Positions 32,881 to 55,389 of a stretch of 64,000 bases of DNA are shown here, in pieces. The position numbers and the translations under genes are program-made. Each line of letters begins with the position of its first letter. Within the stretch, counting starts at the first letter, position 1. The notes beneath the pieces are model-generated. The model did not search any database and was not told the origin of the DNA. It worked only from the letters and a program-made list of their open reading frames with translations. This stretch comes from the human T2T-CHM13v2.0 reference genome, Homo sapiens: assembly GCF_009914755.1 (NCBI RefSeq), contig NC_060938.1, one strand, 5' to 3'.

Positions 32881-32999
32881 TTAGAATTTTTAATTTAATT
32901 TAATTTAGAATTTAATTTAAATTAATTTAATTCTAATTAAATTAGAATTTAACTAATAATTTAATTCTAATTAAATTAGAATTTAACTAATAATTTAAT
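32881..32999. repeat. AT-rich tandem and palindromic repeat (34-bp unit x2)
   Basis: TAATTTAATTCTAATTAAATTAGAATTTAACTAA at 32923-32956 and 32957-32990. Confidence 0.9.
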
Positions 33000-46499: not shown

Positions 46500-48390
46500 T
46501 TTATATATTTACTTCACTTCTTCCTTATGTAATAAGTAAAATTTACATCAGGAAAGAGTGCAGCAATTTTAAGCTTTTGACTCAAGGGATAGATACTTAA
46601 GTATATACATACCCATTTTACTACCCAAGATGAAGATATATGATATTTTCAGTACCTAGGAGGGATCCCTTATACTTCTTTCCATATCAATACCTCCCTA
46701 AAGGAACCAGTATTTTAACTTCTATTGCCATACATTCATTATGCTCATTCTTGAAATGTGTACATATAAAAGCATATTGTATAGAATTTTTTGCATCTGG
46801 CTTCTTTTGTTCAATATAGTGCCTTTAAGATGCAGTTATTACATCTATCTGCATGTTGCCTTATTTTATTTTCTTCTTAAAATTGCATAATAGAACATTT
46901 ATATACACTGAAATTTATTTATACATTCTGTTATTTGTGAATACTTGCACTGCTTCAAATTTAGGTTATTTAAGTAAAGCTTCTAGGTACATTCTGGTAT
47001 ATGTCTTTTTATAAGCAAATACATGACTTTCTCTTGGGTGCTTATTTAGGAGTAAAATTACTCTTATAAATACTACCAGTTTTCCATAGCTGTTTTACTA
47101 TCTTATACTGCTACCAGCAATGCAGCAGAGGTCCATAACCTTGACAACACTTGGAATTGTCAGTCTTTAATTTTAGTAATTCTAGTGCATGTGGGGGTTT
47201 TAATGTGTATTTTTCTGATAAGTAATGCCGTTGAGCACTTTGTTCATGTGATTACTATTTGGAGATGCTCTTTTGTAAAGGTAATTTTCAAGTGCTCTGT
47301 TCATTTTTTATTGGTTGTTTACATTTTTAAAAATTGATAGCTTAAATTGCAAATATGTGGGGATCTTCTCTTTACCTTTCTGTTATTGATCTCCAGTTCT
47401 GTTTTATTGCCACTTACTAAAAAACAATTTATATTGAAAATCCTTTGATATTTGTTGATATTTGCCTTTTATATTTCTTGATATTAACCCAACATATGAC
47501 CTGTTTTATTAAACATTTTGTGTGCACTTCAGAAGAATGTGTATTCGGTAGTTATTGAGTATAACGTTCTCAAAAGCAATGAAATTGAGTGGGCTAATGC
47601 AACTATTCAAATCTTCTATATCTTTGATGATTTGTATCTGCTTCTTCCATCATTTATTAAGAGAAGTTAATTAAAATATCCAACTACACTTGTAGCTTTT
47701 TCTATTGTCTTTATTTCTGTAAAATGTTGATTTTTACATTTTAAAGAAATATTATTAGTCAATACATATTTTCAACATTGTAGTCTTCCTTTTTAATTTA
47801 TTCCTTTCTAAAATGAAACATCTCTATCTTTAATCAGATTTCTTCCCTTTGTGTCTTCTTTGCCTGATATTAAGAAAGCCACGGTGGTTTTCTTTTGATT
47901 AGCATGTTTCTGTTGTTTACTTTCTACCTGCGTCTTTCTGTTTACAATGAATCTTTTTTAAAATTATAGAAGTGGGCTTGTTTTTTTTCTTTTTAACAAT
48001 CTGACAATATTTTCTTTTAGCTAGACTATTTAGTCTATTTCTGTTTAATACAGTGACAGATAGACTTGGTTTACCTCATCTTGTCCTTATTTATCTATCC
48101 TTTACTGCCTTCTGTTAAATTATCAAATATGTTTACAGTCTATTTTACTGCTTTTGTTTTAGTTATACCATAGGGTTTTTTTTTCAGTATGCCTTTTTGG
48201 TTGCTCTAAACACTATAATATGCAACCTAAATGTATTAAATTCTACATCAAATTAGTGCTATATTACTCTCAGTGCAACATGTAATTACTATTTACCTGT
48301 CTCTTATGATACATGTTATTATCATATATTTTTCTCTATTCATAGTATGACCATCATATGACATAGTTATTGTTTTTGCTTTAAATAGTC
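46500..48390 (-). mobile_element. Old L1M (L1ME/MC-like) fragments
   Basis: T-rich antisense L1 motifs (ccagcaatgc..., gaagaatgtgtattc, ttcaaatcttctatatc). Confidence 0.65.
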
Positions 48391-48406
48391 TGTGGTATAT
48401 TAGTAC

Positions 48407-48620
48407 TGTATCAACAAGCTAAGTTGGAACTACATTTTCTAAAATTTTATTTCCTATATGGTTTCAGGTTAGGCTTGGCCACAAGAGAATCTTGTGTGAT
48501 ATTGAAAATGTGGATGTGAAGCAGCAGCCATGATTCTGAGGTTGGTTAAGTGTCCTGGATGCTGCTGGAGCATGCATCCCTTGTGGCTAACCTACTGGGT
48601 CACATTGTGGCATGGAGACT
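48407..48620. mobile_element. Possible old ERVL-class LTR fragment
   Basis: ggaactacattttc motif and GC shift; family uncertain. Confidence 0.35.
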
Positions 48621-49272
48621 TGTAATACAAAAATATTTATCTTGAGAGTTTAGCATTAATGTCTAGCTACCAATATAAACGTTATCTAAATTTAAAGAAC
48701 TAATTTTTCACACATTTTGAAACATAATTCAGCAACAAGTATAAAAGGAATCACCTACAGATTATACACATTCTCAATATTTTAATCAGGTCAGCTGTAA
48801 ACACTTGCAAAGTGCATATAAAATTGAGTGCACCCAAATACAAGTGGATATTGAGTCCTGACACCATATGAACTATATGGAGATTGGATTATAAAATAAG
48901 AGTGATACCTTCCATTAATGAAAACACCATTTTGATTTGATATGTAGTGCCCATACAATTATGGGCTCGGTTGAACATTGAACATTGACCCAGGTATTTA
49001 GGCATATAATATCTATTTAGAAGGATAAATAACTTGTAAATTCATTATAACCAATCTGTTTCAGTAGAAAGTATCATCTCCACCCTTTAATAGTCATCCG
49101 ACATATTATACATTTATTTATTTATTTTTTGTTTTCCTTCACTAGAATGTAAGCTTCCTGGGAATCTATTTAATTACTGCCATATACTGCTATTTGTTTA
49201 ATGCTTTGTGCATTGCAATTGTTTAATTTTTTTTAATGAATAGACAAAACTCTATTAAGGATTTCAAAGGTG

Positions 49273-49622
49273 TGTTATGGATCGAGTGTTTTTGTTCCCC
49301 TAAAATTCATATGCTGAAGTCCTAACCCACAATGTAATGGTAGGGGGTGGGGCTTTTGGTAGACAATTGCATCATGAGGGTACAGCCCTCATGAATGGAT
49401 TACTGTCCCTATAAAACAGACTCCAGAGAGCTCTGTTGCTCTGTTCAATATGTGAGGGCACAAAAAGTTGGCCCTCTGCAACCTAGAAGAGAAGGTTTAC
49501 CAGAACTTCTGCACTGTGATCTCAGATTTCCTAATTCCAGTACTGTGAGAAATACATTTCTGTTGTTCATAAGCCATTCAGTCTATGGTGTTTCATTATA
49601 GAAACCCGAACTGACTAAGACA
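49273..49622 (+). mobile_element. MLT1A-like MaLR solo LTR
   Basis: TGTTATGG...gactaagaca; TSD aggtg/atgtg. Confidence 0.9.
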
Positions 49623-50008
49623 ATGTGTTTAGTAGATTCTACTAATAAAAATTATTCTTAGACCTGAGCTGACAGTGCAACCACCATTACAAATTTGGCA
49701 GTTGCTGTACTATGTGAGAAAAAGAGAGTTCTAGAGGAGTTTTAATTGGCAGTTAAATGCCAGAACTATAGCATGGCTCAACTCAACCACGAGGAGACCA
49801 ATAATACCGATCCTATAATTTTTGTGGAAAGTGGGCCAACTGATAATACCTGGAAAACAGCATGAAGAGCTACTCTACTGCATATACACTTTGGGATATA
49901 AATACTTAATTTTCTGTAAGTTTTTGAAGATATTAAACATTTTCCAATACCTTTCCAATGGCAACACAGTATCATATAATATATGTAATGTAATATCACA
50001 TGTCATAT

Positions 50009-50010
<2 letters not shown>

Positions 50011-50044
<34 letters not shown>
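50011..50044. repeat. (AT)17 microsatellite
   Basis: Direct reading. Confidence 0.98.
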
Positions 50045-50046
<2 letters not shown>

Positions 50047-50092
50047 CAATTATTTCCCTAGCATTTGTTTGCTAAAAAATTTTTTCACTTCA

Positions 50093-50383
<291 letters not shown>

Positions 50384-51071
50384 TTAAATCACACTGAAAT
50401 AAATGTTTTGTGCATAAATCTCGGCCCATATTTCATATTAACAATTAAGAAAAAAGTAAATAGAAATTTCCCTATGAAAGAACTATTAGGATATTTTTAT
50501 GATGATTTTGAGTGCCATAATATTACCTAGCTCCATATTTATTTTTATTGGTTTATCTCTGCCACAGGACTGCAAAGAAGGATGACAGATTAGTTATTTA
50601 TCTGAAACTCTTTAGATGTGAATTCTATGAATTTAATTCAAATAGCTAAAATTCCAAGTATCATTAAGGAAAAAATGATAATTTATTTGGTATATCATCT
50701 TTCTAAAATTTGTTATTCATCTCTTAGTTTATTTTGTGCTGTTTAACAAAATATCTGACACTGCATAATTTCTAAAGACCAGAAATTTACTGTCTCACAG
50801 TTCTGAAGGCTGGGAAGTCCAAGATCAAAGTGCTAGCAAACTCAATGCCTGCTGAGGGCTGCTCTCTGCTTCCAAGGTGGTACCTTGTTGCTGCATTCTC
50901 TGGAGGGCAGGAATGCTGTATCCTCACATGGCAGAAGAGCAGAAGATTAAGTGGGCCCAGTGTTGTGTGAAGCCTTTTATAACGACCTTAATCCCATTCA
51001 TGGGGGAGGAGCCCTCATGACCAAATCAATTCTTAAAGACCCCCATCTCTATCACATTGGTCATTAAGTTT

Positions 51072-51547
51072 TGTGAAGGCTAAAGCAACTCCATCTTTGA
51101 TGCTAATCTGCTATGTTAACTTCTGATTAACGCTTGTTCTGGGAATGCCTCTAAGACTTCCAGTGTATCTATTGTTCCTTGTGTAAGTGCACTTACTTAT
51201 GAGAAATCCTGTCCTCAGGTCAAATGATCTTGATGTTACCCTAAGTCTTGCCCTTAAGCAATTGTCCTACTTATCCCTTCTGAATCACTTATACCCCTTC
51301 CCTGTGGTATAGAAGCCGTAGGTCGGCTGGGCTTCTATACCACAGGGAAAGGGTGTACGTGATTCCCAGGTATAATGGCATGGGAATCCACTATCTTGTC
51401 TCTCTGCCACTCAAGACATAAATGTATGTTTTGTTTGTATGTCCCTGTTAAATGCTTATTTCTCAGAAACTGGATATACCAGCCTCTTTCTTTGACCTCT
51501 CAGCTCCCCCTGGATTTTGGGGGCAGGTTTGCATAGATGTGCCTACG
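51072..51547 (+). mobile_element. LTR47A-like ERVL solo LTR
   Basis: TGTGAAGGCTAAAGCAACTCCATCTTTGATGCTAATC start; perfect 5-bp TSD AGTTT at 51067-51071 and 51548-51552. Confidence 0.8.
51282..51365. repeat. 84-bp inverted duplication (36-bp arms, 12-nt loop)
   Basis: GAATCACTTATACCCCTTCCCTGTGGTATAGAAGCC versus the reverse complement of 51330-51365: 33/36 identical. Confidence 0.95.
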
Positions 51548-51609
51548 AGTTTCAACACCTGAATTTGGAAGGGGGCACATTCAAACCATAGGAACATCTT
51601 TTCTTTAAA

Positions 51610-51790
51610 GGGGTGGGGGGAGGGGGGAGGGATAGCCTTAGGAGATATACTTAATGCTAAATGACGAGTTAATGGGTGCAGCACACCAACATGGCACATG
51701 TATACATATGTAACAAACCTGCACGTTGTGCACATGTACCCTAAAACTTAAAGGATAATAATAATTAAAAAATTAAAATTAAAATAAAAA
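51610..51790 (+). mobile_element. Short 5'-truncated young L1PA (L1PA3/4-like) 3' end
   Basis: G-rich tract then aatgctaaatgacgagttaatgggtgcagcacaccaacatgg and A-rich tail. Confidence 0.93.
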
Positions 51791-52639
51791 AGGAGTATAA
51801 GGGGCATATACTTTCATCCTCTTAATGACTTGGGTTATCATTATGAAGATAAATGTGTTTCTCTTATTTTAATATGGTTAAAAATAGACCTTTTGGGGAG
51901 ATAGCCAGCACTGGGCACTTTTACATCTAGTTACCTTGGAATATTGGACAAACGACTTAACCTTTGTTTGAATCTCAATTTTCTTTTCTGTAAAATGGAG
52001 ACAATAATATTACTACAAGCAACTGACGCAGGGATTAGAAATCATACAGGGGAAAGGCATAAAATCACAGCAGGCCCAGTGTTGATGATAGCAAATGCCA
52101 GCTATGAAAATGATGTTACATTTGAAAACTACCGAGGCATGAAACTGTTCTTCCTTGCAGTAAATGTTAACAGTATTTTGCAACTTTAACTGGCATGTTA
52201 GTGGACATGTGTGTGAGTGTGTACATGTCTGTGTGTATGTACATGTCTGTGTGTATGTAAATATGTGTTTATGTACATGTTAGTGTATATATTTCCACAC
52301 TTGCTGTTAGTAACTATCCTTCTTCTGGATTCTAGCACCATTTAAGTAGCCTCTCCTGGTGTAATTTATTATATTTAATCAACGGAAAGTTTGGAAACCA
52401 GAAAGTCCTTTAGCAGTATTGACTTGAGGCTAAGTCCTTTAAGTAAAGTCAATAAACTCTAATGCTTTTGTTTTCCCACACTGACTTTATTTGTTAAGGG
52501 GCCTTTTTACTCCATTTTTATGCTACTGATTGTATTTTGAATAAGTGAGGTTGCAAGATTGCTAGGTTTCCAATAAATAAATGACATTAAACTGTAAATA
52601 TTGTAATATGAGAATTTGTTCATTTGATTTTAGTATTTA

Positions 52640-52882
52640 TTTTTAAAACCACTTTGTTGAGATGACTAACATATAAAAAGCTGTACCTATTTAATGTATA
52701 CAATTTGATAAGTACATGCCTGTGAAACCATCACCACCATCAAAGCCGTAAACATATTCATCATCTTCCAAAGTTTCCTCCCAGCCCCTTTATTTATATT
52801 CTTATTTTTGAAGGTAAGAACACTTAACATAAGATCTACTTTCTTAGTAAATTTTAAGCATATGGTACAGTAATTGCTATAG
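52640..52882 (-). mobile_element. L1MA9-L1MB2-like 3'UTR fragment
   Basis: cctgtgaaaccatcaccaccatcaa...gtaagaacacttaacataagatctac. Confidence 0.8.
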
Positions 52883-53258
52883 GGTATTTATTCTTCAGCC
52901 CCTGAAAAACCGGTGTTCTACTAAAAGTTATTTGTCTCTAACTTATCTCAACCCTTCAGACCAAGATTTAAAAAATTAAGTAGAGGAGTGTATTCACCAA
53001 TCTTCTGAAGATTTCAGAGTCATGTTTCTGGAAAGATCTAACTCTTCATTTACTGCCTTTATTACTTACTTCCTTAAAGTTTCACACCAGTGAACATTTT
53101 CAGATAATAATGTCTGTTTTACCAGGAAAAGACTGGTAAATTCTAGTTGATTTTTGAGCTCTCAGCTCAAGGTCCCTCTCCAAAGCAGTGTGTGGGGCCT
53201 GGGGACTGCCCAACCAGGAGAGGAAGCAGTAGCCACTTATCTTCCAGCACTGGAGAAG

Positions 53259-53393
53259 CAGGACCAGCTACATAATTTGCGGAGTCCAGTGAAAAATGAA
53301 AATGAGGGATTCCTTGTTCAAACGTATGAAAGATTTCAATATAGGGACAGTAGAGCATTAAATCAAGCACTGTTGCCCTGAAGGCTGGCCTTG
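53259..53393 (-). mobile_element. MER45A hAT-Tip100 MITE
   Basis: CAGGACCAGCTACATAATTTGCGGAGTCCAGTGAAAAATGAAAATG...agagcattaaatcaagc. Confidence 0.8.
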
Positions 53394-55389
53394 TGACTAG
53401 ACGCTTCCTAGGGTGGCCCTGGACTTTGCACCAGAGGAAGAGGTACAAGCTTTGCATCCCTAAACTGCTGCTTTCTCCCAAGTTAGACCTTGTGCAAAGG
53501 AAAGGGGGATGAGACTGTCCTCTATGGGCTTTCAGCTATGTGTCAGAGTTTTCCTGCATCTTATTTAATTCTTACAATAACTCTGTAGGCAAGTCTTGTC
53601 ACCACATTTTTGCATATGTGAGAGTCAGAAAATTTGTTTAATTTGTCAAAGTCATAAGTGTTTCTCTCTGGATCCCTGGCTTCTTCTGCCAAACCCCCTT
53701 TCCAGTTTCCAGAGACTGCTGGACTTCTCTTTCATTTACAAATGAATGTATCTCTGAGGGAGTGTATTGGACTGCTGGGAATTACAGTGTGGTTTGGATA
53801 ACATTAAGCTCTTCCCCACCTCTGGCTTGGCTTTGGTGATTCTCAAACATAAAACTAAAAACAACTTAGCTCAGGATCTGTGTTATTCTAATGCCTTTCT
53901 GTAACTAGGCTAAGGATCTTATTAATTAGCAAAGATCTTCTTACTTCAGGGTTTCACACCTGAAGCCTATTAGCTGCCCAGGCTCTCTGTGTATAAAAAT
54001 AAAGTAGCGCCTATTCACTCTTTCCTAAATGACTCCTGGGATTTCTCATCCCCTGTTTCTATAAGCAAAAACTACCAAAAATTTATTCTCAAAGACCCTG
54101 ATAGCTCCTTTAATAAGTAAAAAAAAAAAAAAAATAGAATTTTGAAATTATCTAGGAAGCTAAAAGAAGCAAAATTATGTTACCCTCTTCTCTGTATAGA
54201 TACTACATCTATACAAACTATACTTGAGTTCATATTAATTCTAAATAATGCCACTGTAACATCTATTTTTAAAAAGGCCAAATTATTTAACAAAACTTAA
54301 TCTTACGGAAAATTACATTTAAATACAAACAATTTACAATTCTTGTCACCAGAAGAGGAATTCAGTTATTTGATCCTTTTGAAAATTTCTGCCCATAAAC
54401 ATGATGAAGCCAGTAAACTGCTAAAATGATCTAGAAAAAGCTGCTGGACATACTCTAAGTTACTTGATAGGAAAAAAAAAAAAAAAAACCTAGAATAAGA
54501 TGTGTACATCATTACCAAACAAAATCAGAAAATTCACTTCCACAAAATTTTTGAACCTCAATAAGCAATGCCTCTAATTATCTAAGCATGTTTGGACTAT
54601 TTGGAAAGACTATTTTACCAAAAAATGAGGTAAAACCTTGATTGGTTATAGTTAAAATGAAACCTAAGTTTTCCTTCTCCAAGATATCCTGAATAAGATT
54701 CACAATAAATAAGTTCAGTAGTTAGATGTTTTTATTTGGTAGAAATAATCTGCTTTACTTATTTAGCTTGATGAAAACCCTAAAGTGCTTTTAAGTCCAG
54801 TTTATATTTCTATATTATTTTAGAGAAAATATGTTGTTAATGACCTCTTGGTGACAAACTCTCAGCACTTATGGAAATAAAGAGGAAGTAAGAGTAGTCT
54901 GTGGTCACTCTGATTTTCATAAAACAAACTTTCTTTGTCTGAATTGGGCAACTAATGTATCAGAGGAGAAATATCTTTCTACATATAAATGTGTTGCTTT
55001 AAAAATTGGTATTCTTGTATTTCTTAGTTTCCGTTGTCAATTTTTGTTAACTTGATTTTCAGTCCAATTGGGAAGAAAGTAGAGGTAGGGATAATAACAC
55101 CAGAGACAGTCCAATAAACACCAGTATATTAAGAGATTATGAATGACTATACCATTGTACTTATTCACTTACTCAATTTATATTTATCAAGAACCTAGTT
55201 TTGCCAGGCATGTGGATAAGGGCTGGGGATGAAAAAGTAAATAAGACAGAGAAGTTACTATTTGCCTGAATCTTATGTTTCAGTAGTATGAAACATAAAT
55301 AAATAAATAAATAAATAAATATCTAGGTGATTTTGTCTAGTGCTACTTTCCATGAAGATAGACAGGATGGTGAGCTGAGGATATCTTTT

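What the first reader, a model, noticed from the sequence alone, without database searches (positions are those of the whole stretch)
51282..51365. Pre-miRNA-sized hairpin created by an inverted duplication across an ERVL LTR TATA region
Seen: 36-bp arms (51282-51317 and 51330-51365) with 33/36 identity, the inner 20 bp perfect, and a 12-nt loop. In + strand RNA one mismatch becomes a G:U pair. A nested mini-hairpin AGCCG-TAGGT-CGGCT (51314-51328) sits at the turn, as expected for fold-back template switching. From my recall of LTR47A, the left arm is native (covering the TATA-like TATAGAAG) and the right arm is an extra copy. Known: a ~35-bp stem with a >=10-nt loop fits Drosha substrate geometry, and many young primate miRNAs arose from TE inverted duplications. 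Inference: a candidate lineage-specific miRNA/endo-shRNA, or a cruciform with opposed TATA-like boxes.
Basis: partly seen in the sequence, partly recalled or inferred. Interest (0 to 1): 0.7.

Follow-up and report, generated by a model that had tools for sequence, protein, structure and literature searches.

The report
Inverted duplication hairpin in old LTR
A 36-base stretch of an ancient solo retroviral LTR was copied backwards right next to itself, giving a real microRNA-sized hairpin of an already described and common kind, with nothing so far showing that it is transcribed or used.

Summary
Arms 51282-51317 and 51330-51365 match at 33/36, the inner 20 bp are perfect and the spacer is 12 nt. 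Both RNA strands fold far better than shuffles (z -8.1 and -8.9).

The hairpin sits in a + oriented solo LTR, 51072-51547. A perfect 5-bp duplication (AGTTT) flanks it, and it lies inside an older LTR-like repeat.

The left arm is native. The right arm is absent from 0 of 20 aligned copies and 0 of 29 fetched copies. So it is a local inverted duplication, best explained by a replication template switch, a published source of such hairpins (PMC10710096).

The arms differ by K2P 0.089. That puts the event tens of millions of years back, about a quarter to a third of the LTR's age.

The microRNA reading has no support:
- No Rfam family reaches threshold.
- No annotated gene or transcript covers the site, and the nearest MIR gene is 5.1 Mb away.
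- One of three processing motifs is present on +, none on -.
- Both TATA-like boxes would start RNA inside the opposite arm.

The 5-bp duplications fit the ERVL class. The name LTR47A could not be tested. Interest is low.

The parts
51282..51317 (+). Left arm of the inverted repeat; native LTR sequence holding the TATA-like octamer
   Evidence: One search gives the arm; the other copies align across it. At 33 arm positions both arms agree, and at 31 of those at least half of the copies share the base.
51318..51329 (+). 12-nt spacer (hairpin loop). Its first part aligns with native LTR sequence; with 51314-51317 it forms the small alternative stem AGCCG/CGGCT, which is out of register with the long arms
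51330..51365 (+). Right arm: reverse-complement copy of the left arm, found only in this copy of the LTR
   Evidence: 0 of 20 copies have any base aligned to 51326-51364; 0 of 29 loci have a second, inverted arm; the arm plus its downstream junction matches nowhere else in the genome search.
51326..51366 (+). Stretch present only in the window's copy, a net gain of about 39-41 bases; the exact edges are ambiguous by a few bases
   Evidence: 0 of 20 copies aligned at 51326-51364; at most 2 of 20 at 51326-51366.
51072..51547 (+). Solo LTR, 476 bp, TG...CG ends, of an old multi-copy family.
   Evidence: 569 candidates, 40 scored, 66-79% identity; copies have a median of 425.5 bp, TG in 10 of 14, CA in 13 of 14. 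Searches give the bounds.
51067..51071 (.). Target-site duplication AGTTT, left copy
   Evidence: the host repeat reads ...AAGTTT|CAACA... without a break in 8 of 9 other copies (the ninth reads AAGTT|CCAACA). The window has AGTTT on both sides of the LTR.
51548..51552 (.). Target-site duplication AGTTT, right copy
50725..51071 (+). Left part of the older host repeat that the LTR split. It is MaLR-like by its look; that name is recalled, not tested
   Evidence: 3736 candidates, 40 scored, 74-78% identity.
51553..51595 (+). Right part of the same host repeat
   Evidence: in 9 of 9 other copies the sequence after the empty site matches the window from 51553 on.
51308..51315 (+). TATA-like octamer of the LTR. 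The window has G at 51312, a base shared by only 2 of 20 copies
51332..51339 (-). Copy of the TATA-like octamer on the - strand, made by the duplication and facing the first
51447..51452 (+). GTTAAA at the place where 11 of 20 copies read ATTAAA (poly(A)-signal-like); supports the + orientation of the LTR
   Evidence: One search gives the place. The share is counted by eye on the alignment.

Best explanation
An ancient solo LTR (51072-51547, + strand) lies inside a still older LTR-like repeat; its 5-bp target duplications fit the ERVL/ERV3 class. Long after it integrated, it suffered one local mutation. While the DNA was being copied, the growing strand switched template about 12 bases past position 51317. 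It copied about 36 bases of the opposite strand, or of itself folded back, then returned. This added about 40 bases that are the reverse complement of 51282-51317. The result is a 36-bp, 12-nt-loop inverted repeat. Three substitutions have accumulated in it since. It is most likely an inert by-product: a hairpin-capable stretch in an untranscribed gene desert, not a working microRNA gene. Shown: the repeat, its stability, the LTR bounds and target duplication, and the absence of the right arm from other copies. Inferred: the template-switch mechanism, the date and the lack of function.
For: The repeat and its folds are. The right arm is unique to this copy: 0 of 20 aligned copies have bases at 51326-51364, and 0 of 29 fetched loci have matches to the arm on both strands within 200 nt, while the window used as positive control does. 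The right arm with its downstream junction matches only itself, its own left arm and one other copy's left-arm homologue. The right arm keeps bases seen in other copies at 2 of the 3 sites where the arms differ (like 5 of 12 and 11 of 20 copies, against 1 of 12 and 6 of 20 for the left arm). The left arm does so at the third (11 of 12 against 0 of 12). So both arms descend from one earlier sequence and each has changed since. LTR nature: perfect AGTTT duplication and an uninterrupted empty site in 9 of 9 host-repeat copies; family copies show 5/5 duplications in 6 of 14 and at least 4/5 in 8 of 14, against 0.5% in mismatched controls. Mechanism in print: PMC10710096 (abstract, introduction, sections 5 and 9 read). 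It reports that template switching makes whole hairpins in one event, with 6,054 miRNA-sized ones in human genic regions, of which 57 (0.9%) are annotated miRNAs. Against function: no Rfam match at gathering score in the window, and no gene, transcript or functional element at the site.
Against: Paralogous copies stand in for the ancestral state; no orthologous primate sequence could be read, so the single-step origin and its date are inferred. Only 40 of 569 candidate copies were scored and 29 examined. The edges of the inserted stretch are ambiguous by a few bases, and the spacer differs from the native sequence of other copies, so more than one event cannot be excluded. The right arm is as close to the left-arm homologue of another copy on chromosome 8 (33/35) as to its own left arm (33/36). 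Sequence identity alone therefore does not prove a local template; adjacency and inverted orientation do the work. Absence of annotation is not absence of expression, and no small-RNA or RNA-seq data could be consulted.
Confidence: 0.8

Rival explanations
1. The hairpin is a lineage-specific microRNA or endogenous short-hairpin RNA gene. An RNA reading through the LTR folds into the 36-bp stem and is cut by Drosha and Dicer.
For: Stem of 36 bp (34 paired on + RNA) with a 12-nt loop, and very stable folds on both strands. This geometry matches the preference cited in PMC10710096. A UG sits at the base of the stem on the + strand. Template-switch hairpins have become miRNAs elsewhere: 18 in MirGeneDB according to that paper.
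Against: No Rfam family reaches its gathering score. The best hits are far below it (47.3 against 142, 44.6 against 88 bits), fall on both strands, and are to unrelated families including plant ones, so they reflect the bare stem. No RefSeq gene covers the site: the nearest annotated transcript starts 11 kb downstream, the nearest upstream gene ends 336 kb away, and the nearest of 102 MIR-named genes on the chromosome is 5.1 Mb away. Neither loop has UGU or GUG. On the + strand the only CNNC in the 30 nt after the stem starts at base 23, outside the usual place (recalled), and the - strand has none. RNA started 25-32 nt after either TATA-like box would begin inside the other arm. The published base rate is 0.9% even inside genes. 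A full-text search for the stem core found 0 papers, though lists of new miRNAs usually sit in supplements, which were closed.
Confidence: 0.03
2. The right arm is not a local copy. It would be a short piece of another copy of the same LTR family, placed there in reverse by repair of a break (filler DNA) or by a nested, truncated insertion.
For: The right arm is 33/35 identical to the left-arm homologue of a copy on chromosome 8, about as close as to its own left arm.
Against: The piece lies 12 bases from its own homologue, in inverted orientation and matching it from end to end. A random donor would have to land exactly there. The arms share two bases that are in the minority among copies (5 of 20 and 2 of 20). 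No LTR ends and no target duplication flank the piece. The similarity to the chromosome 8 copy is expected if that copy simply changed little.
Confidence: 0.05
3. The inverted repeat acts at the DNA level, as a cruciform or as a pair of facing TATA-like boxes that alters promoter or enhancer use of the LTR.
For: The DNA fold is strong (-32.2 kcal/mol, z -11.2). The duplication did create a second, facing copy of the octamer at 51332-51339. A 2026 paper (PMC13100816, search listing and abstract start only) links template-switch expansion of inverted repeats to promoter evolution in yeast.
Against: The 12-nt spacer and three mismatches disfavour extrusion (general knowledge, recalled). The octamer reads TATAGAAG, with a G shared by only 2 of 20 copies. 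RefSeq lists no functional element within 48000-54000 of the window. The arms have drifted at a rate in line with the rest of the LTR, which gives no sign of constraint.
Confidence: 0.03
4. The repeat is a chance match.
For: None.
Against: 0 of 200 shuffles fold as well on either strand. It is the only complex-sequence inverted repeat of its size in 64 kb. By direct calculation (mine, no call), 33 of 36 complementary bases at a given pair of places has a probability of about 4e-17.
Confidence: 0

Closest known systems
Template-switch mutation (TSM) hairpins of the primate lineage, including TSM-born miRNAs such as hsa-mir-4713 (PMC10710096)
   Same: An inverted copy of adjacent sequence, at least 15 nt long, appears as one block and creates a near-perfect stem of miRNA size with a loop of 10 nt or more. 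Later point changes put mismatches in the stem.
   Different: Here the ancestral state is inferred from paralogous LTR copies, not from orthologues. The site is intergenic in a gene desert, whereas the TSM-born miRNAs are enriched in introns. There is no annotation or expression evidence. That paper's genome-wide count covered genic regions only, and its polymorphism set left out repeats.
MicroRNA genes derived from transposable elements, for instance the palindromic MADE1-derived mir-548 family (recalled, not tested here)
   Same: The hairpin arms are made of repeat-element sequence.
   Different: In those families the palindrome belongs to the element, so every copy has it. Here 0 of 29 other copies have it. 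It is a private, later mutation of one copy.
Solo LTRs of the ERV3/ERVL class; LTR47A and LTR47A2 are listed among ERV3 LTRs without a characterised internal part (PMC5753468, Table 4 passages)
   Same: About 425-bp LTR, TG...CA ends, 5-bp target duplications, TATA-like box and ATTAAA-like signal, hundreds of old diverged copies, solo state.
   Different: Identity with the library entry LTR47A was not testable. This copy carries a ~40-base inverted duplication and a 12-base private insertion, and lacks about 9 bases near its 3' end.

Membership tests
LTR of an endogenous retrovirus, ERVL/ERV3 class | Dispersed multi-copy family with defined ends (TG...CA) | tested here: met
   569 candidates, 40 scored, on many chromosomes. 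TG in 10 of 14 copies, CA in 13 of 14, length 420-436. The window copy starts TG and ends CG.
LTR of an endogenous retrovirus, ERVL/ERV3 class | Target-site duplication of 5 bp. That 5 bp marks ERVL/MaLR, 4 bp ERV1 and 6 bp ERVK is recalled knowledge | tested here: met
   Window: AGTTT on both sides, and an empty site in 9 of 9 host-repeat copies. Copies: 5/5 in 6 of 14, at least 4/5 in 8 of 14, 6/6 in 0 of 14; control 0.5%.
LTR of an endogenous retrovirus, ERVL/ERV3 class | Association with an ERVL-type internal region (pol) | not tested
In print, LTR47A has no characterised internal part.
No repeat library is on hand. RefSeq's masking carries no family names and does not mask this stretch.
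Template-switch mutation product | Inverted fragment of at least 15 nt copied from adjacent sequence (criterion in PMC10710096, section 5) | tested here: met
   36-nt arm, 12 nt from its source.
Template-switch mutation product | Absent from the parental state and gained as one block | tested here: inconclusive
   Absent from 0 of 20 aligned and 0 of 29 fetched paralogous copies. Those are proxies; no orthologue from another species could be read.
Canonical microRNA gene | Stem of about 35 bp with an apical loop of 10 nt or more | tested here: met
Canonical microRNA gene | Membership of a described miRNA family or annotation as a miRNA gene | tested here: not met
   Rfam: 0 matches at gathering score in the window, and the sub-threshold hits are structure-only. 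RefSeq: nearest MIR gene 5.1 Mb away. The LTR shares nothing with the mir-558 locus beyond an 11-base match at E 0.21.
Canonical microRNA gene | Primary-sequence processing motifs: basal UG, apical UGU/GUG, downstream CNNC (definitions recalled) | tested here: not met
   + strand: UG at the stem base only. - strand: UG displaced by 2 nt and no other motif. No well-placed CNNC on either strand.
Canonical microRNA gene | Transcription across the hairpin and discrete ~22-nt products with 2-nt 3' overhangs | not testable with these tools
No annotated transcript covers the site.

The most novel reading that the evidence does not exclude
The duplication created a primate-specific small-RNA locus. 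In some tissue with read-through transcription of this desert, for instance germline or early embryo where old LTRs are derepressed, the near-perfect 36-bp stem would be diced into ~22-nt RNAs. Because the arms are LTR sequence, these could pair with transcripts carrying other copies of the same LTR family.
Probability: 0.03. Interest if true: 0.45.

Novelty: new member of a known kind. Interest (0 to 1): 0.18.

Why it matters
As it stands this is one more example of a well-described mutational process, template switching, which leaves thousands of hairpins in the human lineage. It is a clean one, because about 29 paralogous LTR copies serve as an internal record of the state before the event. 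It would matter only if expression data showed processed small RNAs. In that case it would be an intergenic, LTR-borne case of de novo miRNA birth, with possible targets among sister LTR copies.

Tried and rejected
Rfam at permissive thresholds gave 25 weak hits over the hairpin. All were far under their gathering scores, many on both strands, and to unrelated families including plant ones. I rejected them as matches to a bare perfect stem.

The weak mir-558 hit (27.9 against 90 bits) was followed up. The real mir-558 locus was found on chromosome 2. It shares only an 11-base match (E 0.21) with the LTR. Rejected.

RefSeq's repeat masking carries no family names and does not mask the LTR, so it gave no help with naming.

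My first LTR query began at 51082 through a miscount. The true start, 51072, was set later from the flanks. The alignment therefore lacks the first 10 bases of the LTR.

My end-motif script failed on 2 of 16 copies and mis-set the end of one more (L003). By eye, those three would add one 5/5 and one 4/5 duplication; the counts given are the script's.

The nested mini-hairpin was considered as the primer of a fold-back and rejected as evidence, because it is out of register with the arms.

A full-text search for the stem core found nothing. Supplements of papers were closed, and Datasets S1/S2 and Table S1 of PMC10710096 may list hairpin loci that I could not see.

Papers naming LTR47A (7): only PMC5753468 was opened (passages). 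The other six were seen as listings only.

Full report
**1. The observation**

The inverted repeat is in the sequence exactly as described.
- Arms are 51282-51317 and 51330-51365, 36 nt each, 33 of 36 complementary, with 12 nt between them.
- The three mismatched pairs are 51289:51358, 51292:51355 and 51297:51350. The inner 20 bp are perfect.
- On + strand RNA the second pair becomes G:U. On - strand RNA the third does (folds).
- A 124-nt RNA centred on the repeat folds at -68.2 kcal/mol on the + strand (shuffles -36.5 ± 3.9, z -8.14). On the - strand it folds at -66.3 kcal/mol (z -8.89). None of 200 shuffles did as well on either strand.
- As single-stranded DNA, the 84 nt fold at -32.2 kcal/mol (z -11.2).
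- Among 11 inverted repeats of 22 nt or more with partners within 120 nt in the whole window, this is the only one in complex sequence. The other ten lie in AT-rich or (TA)n stretches.

Chance is excluded.

**2. What it sits in**

A genome search with 51082-51553 found 569 candidate places. Forty were scored, at 66-79% identity, on many chromosomes. Full-length matches span about 400-410 bases of the copies against 455-465 of the query, so the window's copy is about 50-60 bases longer.

Flanks of 16 full-length copies show the family starting TGTGGAGG and ending ...AGAACA. A script set both ends in 14 of the 16:
- median length 425.5 bp (range 420-436);
- TG start in 10 of 14 and CA end in 13 of 14;
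- a 5-bp target duplication matching 5/5 in 6 of 14 and at least 4/5 in 8 of 14;
- 0.5% of 182 mismatched control pairs reached 4/5, and no 6/6 match was seen.

In the window the LTR runs from 51072 to 51547 on the + strand. AGTTT is at 51067-51071 and again at 51548-51552.

The DNA on both sides belongs to one older repeat (3736 candidates, 40 scored, 74-78% identity). In 9 of 9 copies of that repeat whose match reached the insertion point, the sequence runs straight on into what the window shows from 51553. In 8 of 9 it reads AAGTTT|CAACA.

So this is a real, complete solo LTR nested in an older LTR-like repeat. The host looks like a MaLR to me, but that name is recalled, not tested.

The + orientation is supported by a TATA-like octamer at 51308 and by GTTAAA at 51447, where 11 of 20 copies read ATTAAA (share counted by eye). 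Private features of this copy, seen:
- a 12-base insertion near 51258-51269;
- about 9 bases missing just before the 3' end;
- a terminal CG instead of CA.

**3. Which arm is native**

In the alignment of the window with 20 copies, all 20 align across the left arm and none has any base opposite 51326-51364. At most 2 of 20 have a base anywhere in 51326-51366.

BLAST of the LTR against all 29 fetched copies finds the right arm only as a reverse match onto each copy's own left-arm homologue.

A direct test asked for matches to the arm on both strands within 200 nt. It gives 0 of 29 loci, while the window itself, as positive control, gives both. Three of the 29 gave no short-word match to the arm at all, and several matched only in part, so this test is weaker than the alignment.

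The right arm with its downstream junction (51318-51400) matches only three things in the genome search: itself, its own left arm, and the left-arm homologue of one copy on chromosome 8 (only 2 candidates were scored).

The left arm is native and the right arm is an extra, inverted copy private to this LTR.

**4. How it arose**

The right arm starts 12 bases after the end of its source and mirrors it from end to end. There are no LTR ends or target duplication of its own.

At the three sites where the arms differ:
- the right arm carries the base seen in more of the other copies at two sites (5 of 12 against 1 of 12; 11 of 20 against 6 of 20);
- the left arm does so at the third (11 of 12 against 0 of 12).

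At two more sites both arms share a base that is in the minority among copies (5 of 20 and 2 of 20).

Both arms therefore descend from one sequence that had already diverged from the family, and each has changed since.

This is the pattern of a template-switch mutation during DNA replication. PMC10710096 (abstract, introduction, sections 5 and 9 read) describes such events:
- they create whole hairpins in one step;
- the paper's criterion is an inverted fragment of at least 15 nt;
- it counts 53,666 putative events in human genic regions since the primate ancestor, 6,054 of them forming hairpins of miRNA size.

The mechanism here is inferred, not shown. The edges of the added block are ambiguous by a few bases.

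The small stem AGCCG/CGGCT in the loop cannot have primed the copy as it stands. It pairs 51314 with 51328, while the arms pair 51314 with 51333.

A donor from another LTR copy is a weak rival. The chromosome 8 copy's homologue is 33/35 identical to the right arm, as close as the window's own left arm. Position and orientation argue for the local source.

**5. Age**

Kimura distances on the alignment:
- window against 20 copies, mean 0.304;
- among the 20 copies, mean 0.250 (190 pairs);
- between the two arms, 0.089 (3 of 36).

Taking half the mean distance among copies (0.125), or the window's own share (about 0.18), and a neutral rate of about 2.2e-9 per site per year (recalled), the LTR is roughly 55-85 million years old. 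Subfamily structure inflates this figure. Subfamilies are visible, for instance a 6-base indel inside the arm region that leaves only 12 of 20 copies with a base at 51289.

For the duplication, 0.089/2 per arm at 1 to 2.2e-9 per site per year gives about 20-45 million years. That is about a quarter to a third of the LTR's age. With only three changes, the Poisson range spans roughly a fifth to three times that figure. Only orthologues can settle it, and none were available.

**6. Is it a microRNA?**

For:
- the geometry fits (36-bp stem, 12-nt loop);
- the + strand has UG at the stem base.

Against:
- No Rfam family reaches its gathering score anywhere in the window.
- Permissive searches give only weak hits that fall on both strands and on unrelated families. 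Examples are MIR6425 at 47.3 against 142 bits, mir-4679 at 44.6 and 42.3 against 88 on the two strands, and mir-558 at 27.9 against 90.
- The true mir-558 locus is unrelated to the LTR.
- RefSeq has no gene over the site. The nearest transcript, a lncRNA, starts 11 kb downstream. The nearest upstream gene ends 336 kb away. The nearest of 102 MIR-named genes on chromosome 14 is 5.1 Mb away.
- No functional element is listed within 48000-54000 of the window.
- Neither loop has UGU or GUG. The only CNNC within 30 nt after the stem starts at base 23 on the + strand. The - strand has none.
- RNA started 25-32 nt after the LTR's TATA-like box would begin at 51333-51340, inside the right arm. The mirrored box would start RNA at 51314-51307, inside the left arm. 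The LTR's own promoter, if it still worked, could not make an RNA with both arms.
- The published yield of annotated miRNAs from such hairpins is 57 of 6,054 (0.9%), and that is within genes, where a promoter is at hand.
- A full-text search for the stem core found 0 papers. Supplements were closed.

Expression itself was not testable here.

**7. Family name**

In print, LTR47A and LTR47A2 are listed among ERV3 LTRs not associated with a characterised internal part. LTR47B to LTR47B4 go with ERVL47 (PMC5753468, Table 4 passages).

The 5-bp duplications measured here fit ERV3/ERVL. The rule linking duplication length to class is recalled; that paper does not state it.

Whether this LTR is LTR47A rather than another ERVL LTR cannot be tested without a repeat library. 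Naming by inner genes was not attempted.

**8. Verdict**

The functional reading is unsupported and a priori unlikely. The hairpin is a new instance of a known and common kind, a template-switch hairpin, here in an old solo LTR in a gene desert. Interest is low.

Noticed in passing
window 51258-51269: A 12-base stretch present only in the window's LTR copy; all 20 aligned copies have a gap there. It resembles the bases just before it, so it is probably a small tandem or slippage duplication.
   Followed up: partly
window 51535-51547: The LTR's 3' end lacks about 9 bases that the other copies have before their terminal CA. It ends in CG, yet the 5-bp target duplication is intact, so a small internal deletion is likely.
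   Followed up: partly
L029 (chromosome 8 copy), left-arm homologue: This copy's homologue of the arm is 33/35 identical to the window's right arm, as close as the window's own left arm. It has probably changed little since integration.
   Followed up: partly
alignment A1, columns about 219-224 (window 51288-51293): 8 of 20 LTR copies lack about 6 bases inside the arm region, which points to at least two subfamilies. The window belongs to the longer form.
   Followed up: no
window 51573-51798: A RefSeq-masked repeat right after the host repeat. By its look it is the 3' end of an L1 element with an A-rich tail (name recalled, not tested).
   Followed up: no
window 50001-50050 and 50086-50412: A (TA)n stretch followed by a masked repeat with sub-threshold signal-recognition-particle RNA matches (56.7 against 70 bits), so Alu-like.
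   Followed up: no
window 32881-32999: An AT-rich low-complexity block holding seven overlapping inverted repeats of 22-39 nt.
   Followed up: no
window 52201-52300: A cluster of weak sub-threshold hits to several miRNA families (best mir-297, 34.9 against 90 bits). The sequence there was not read.
   Followed up: no
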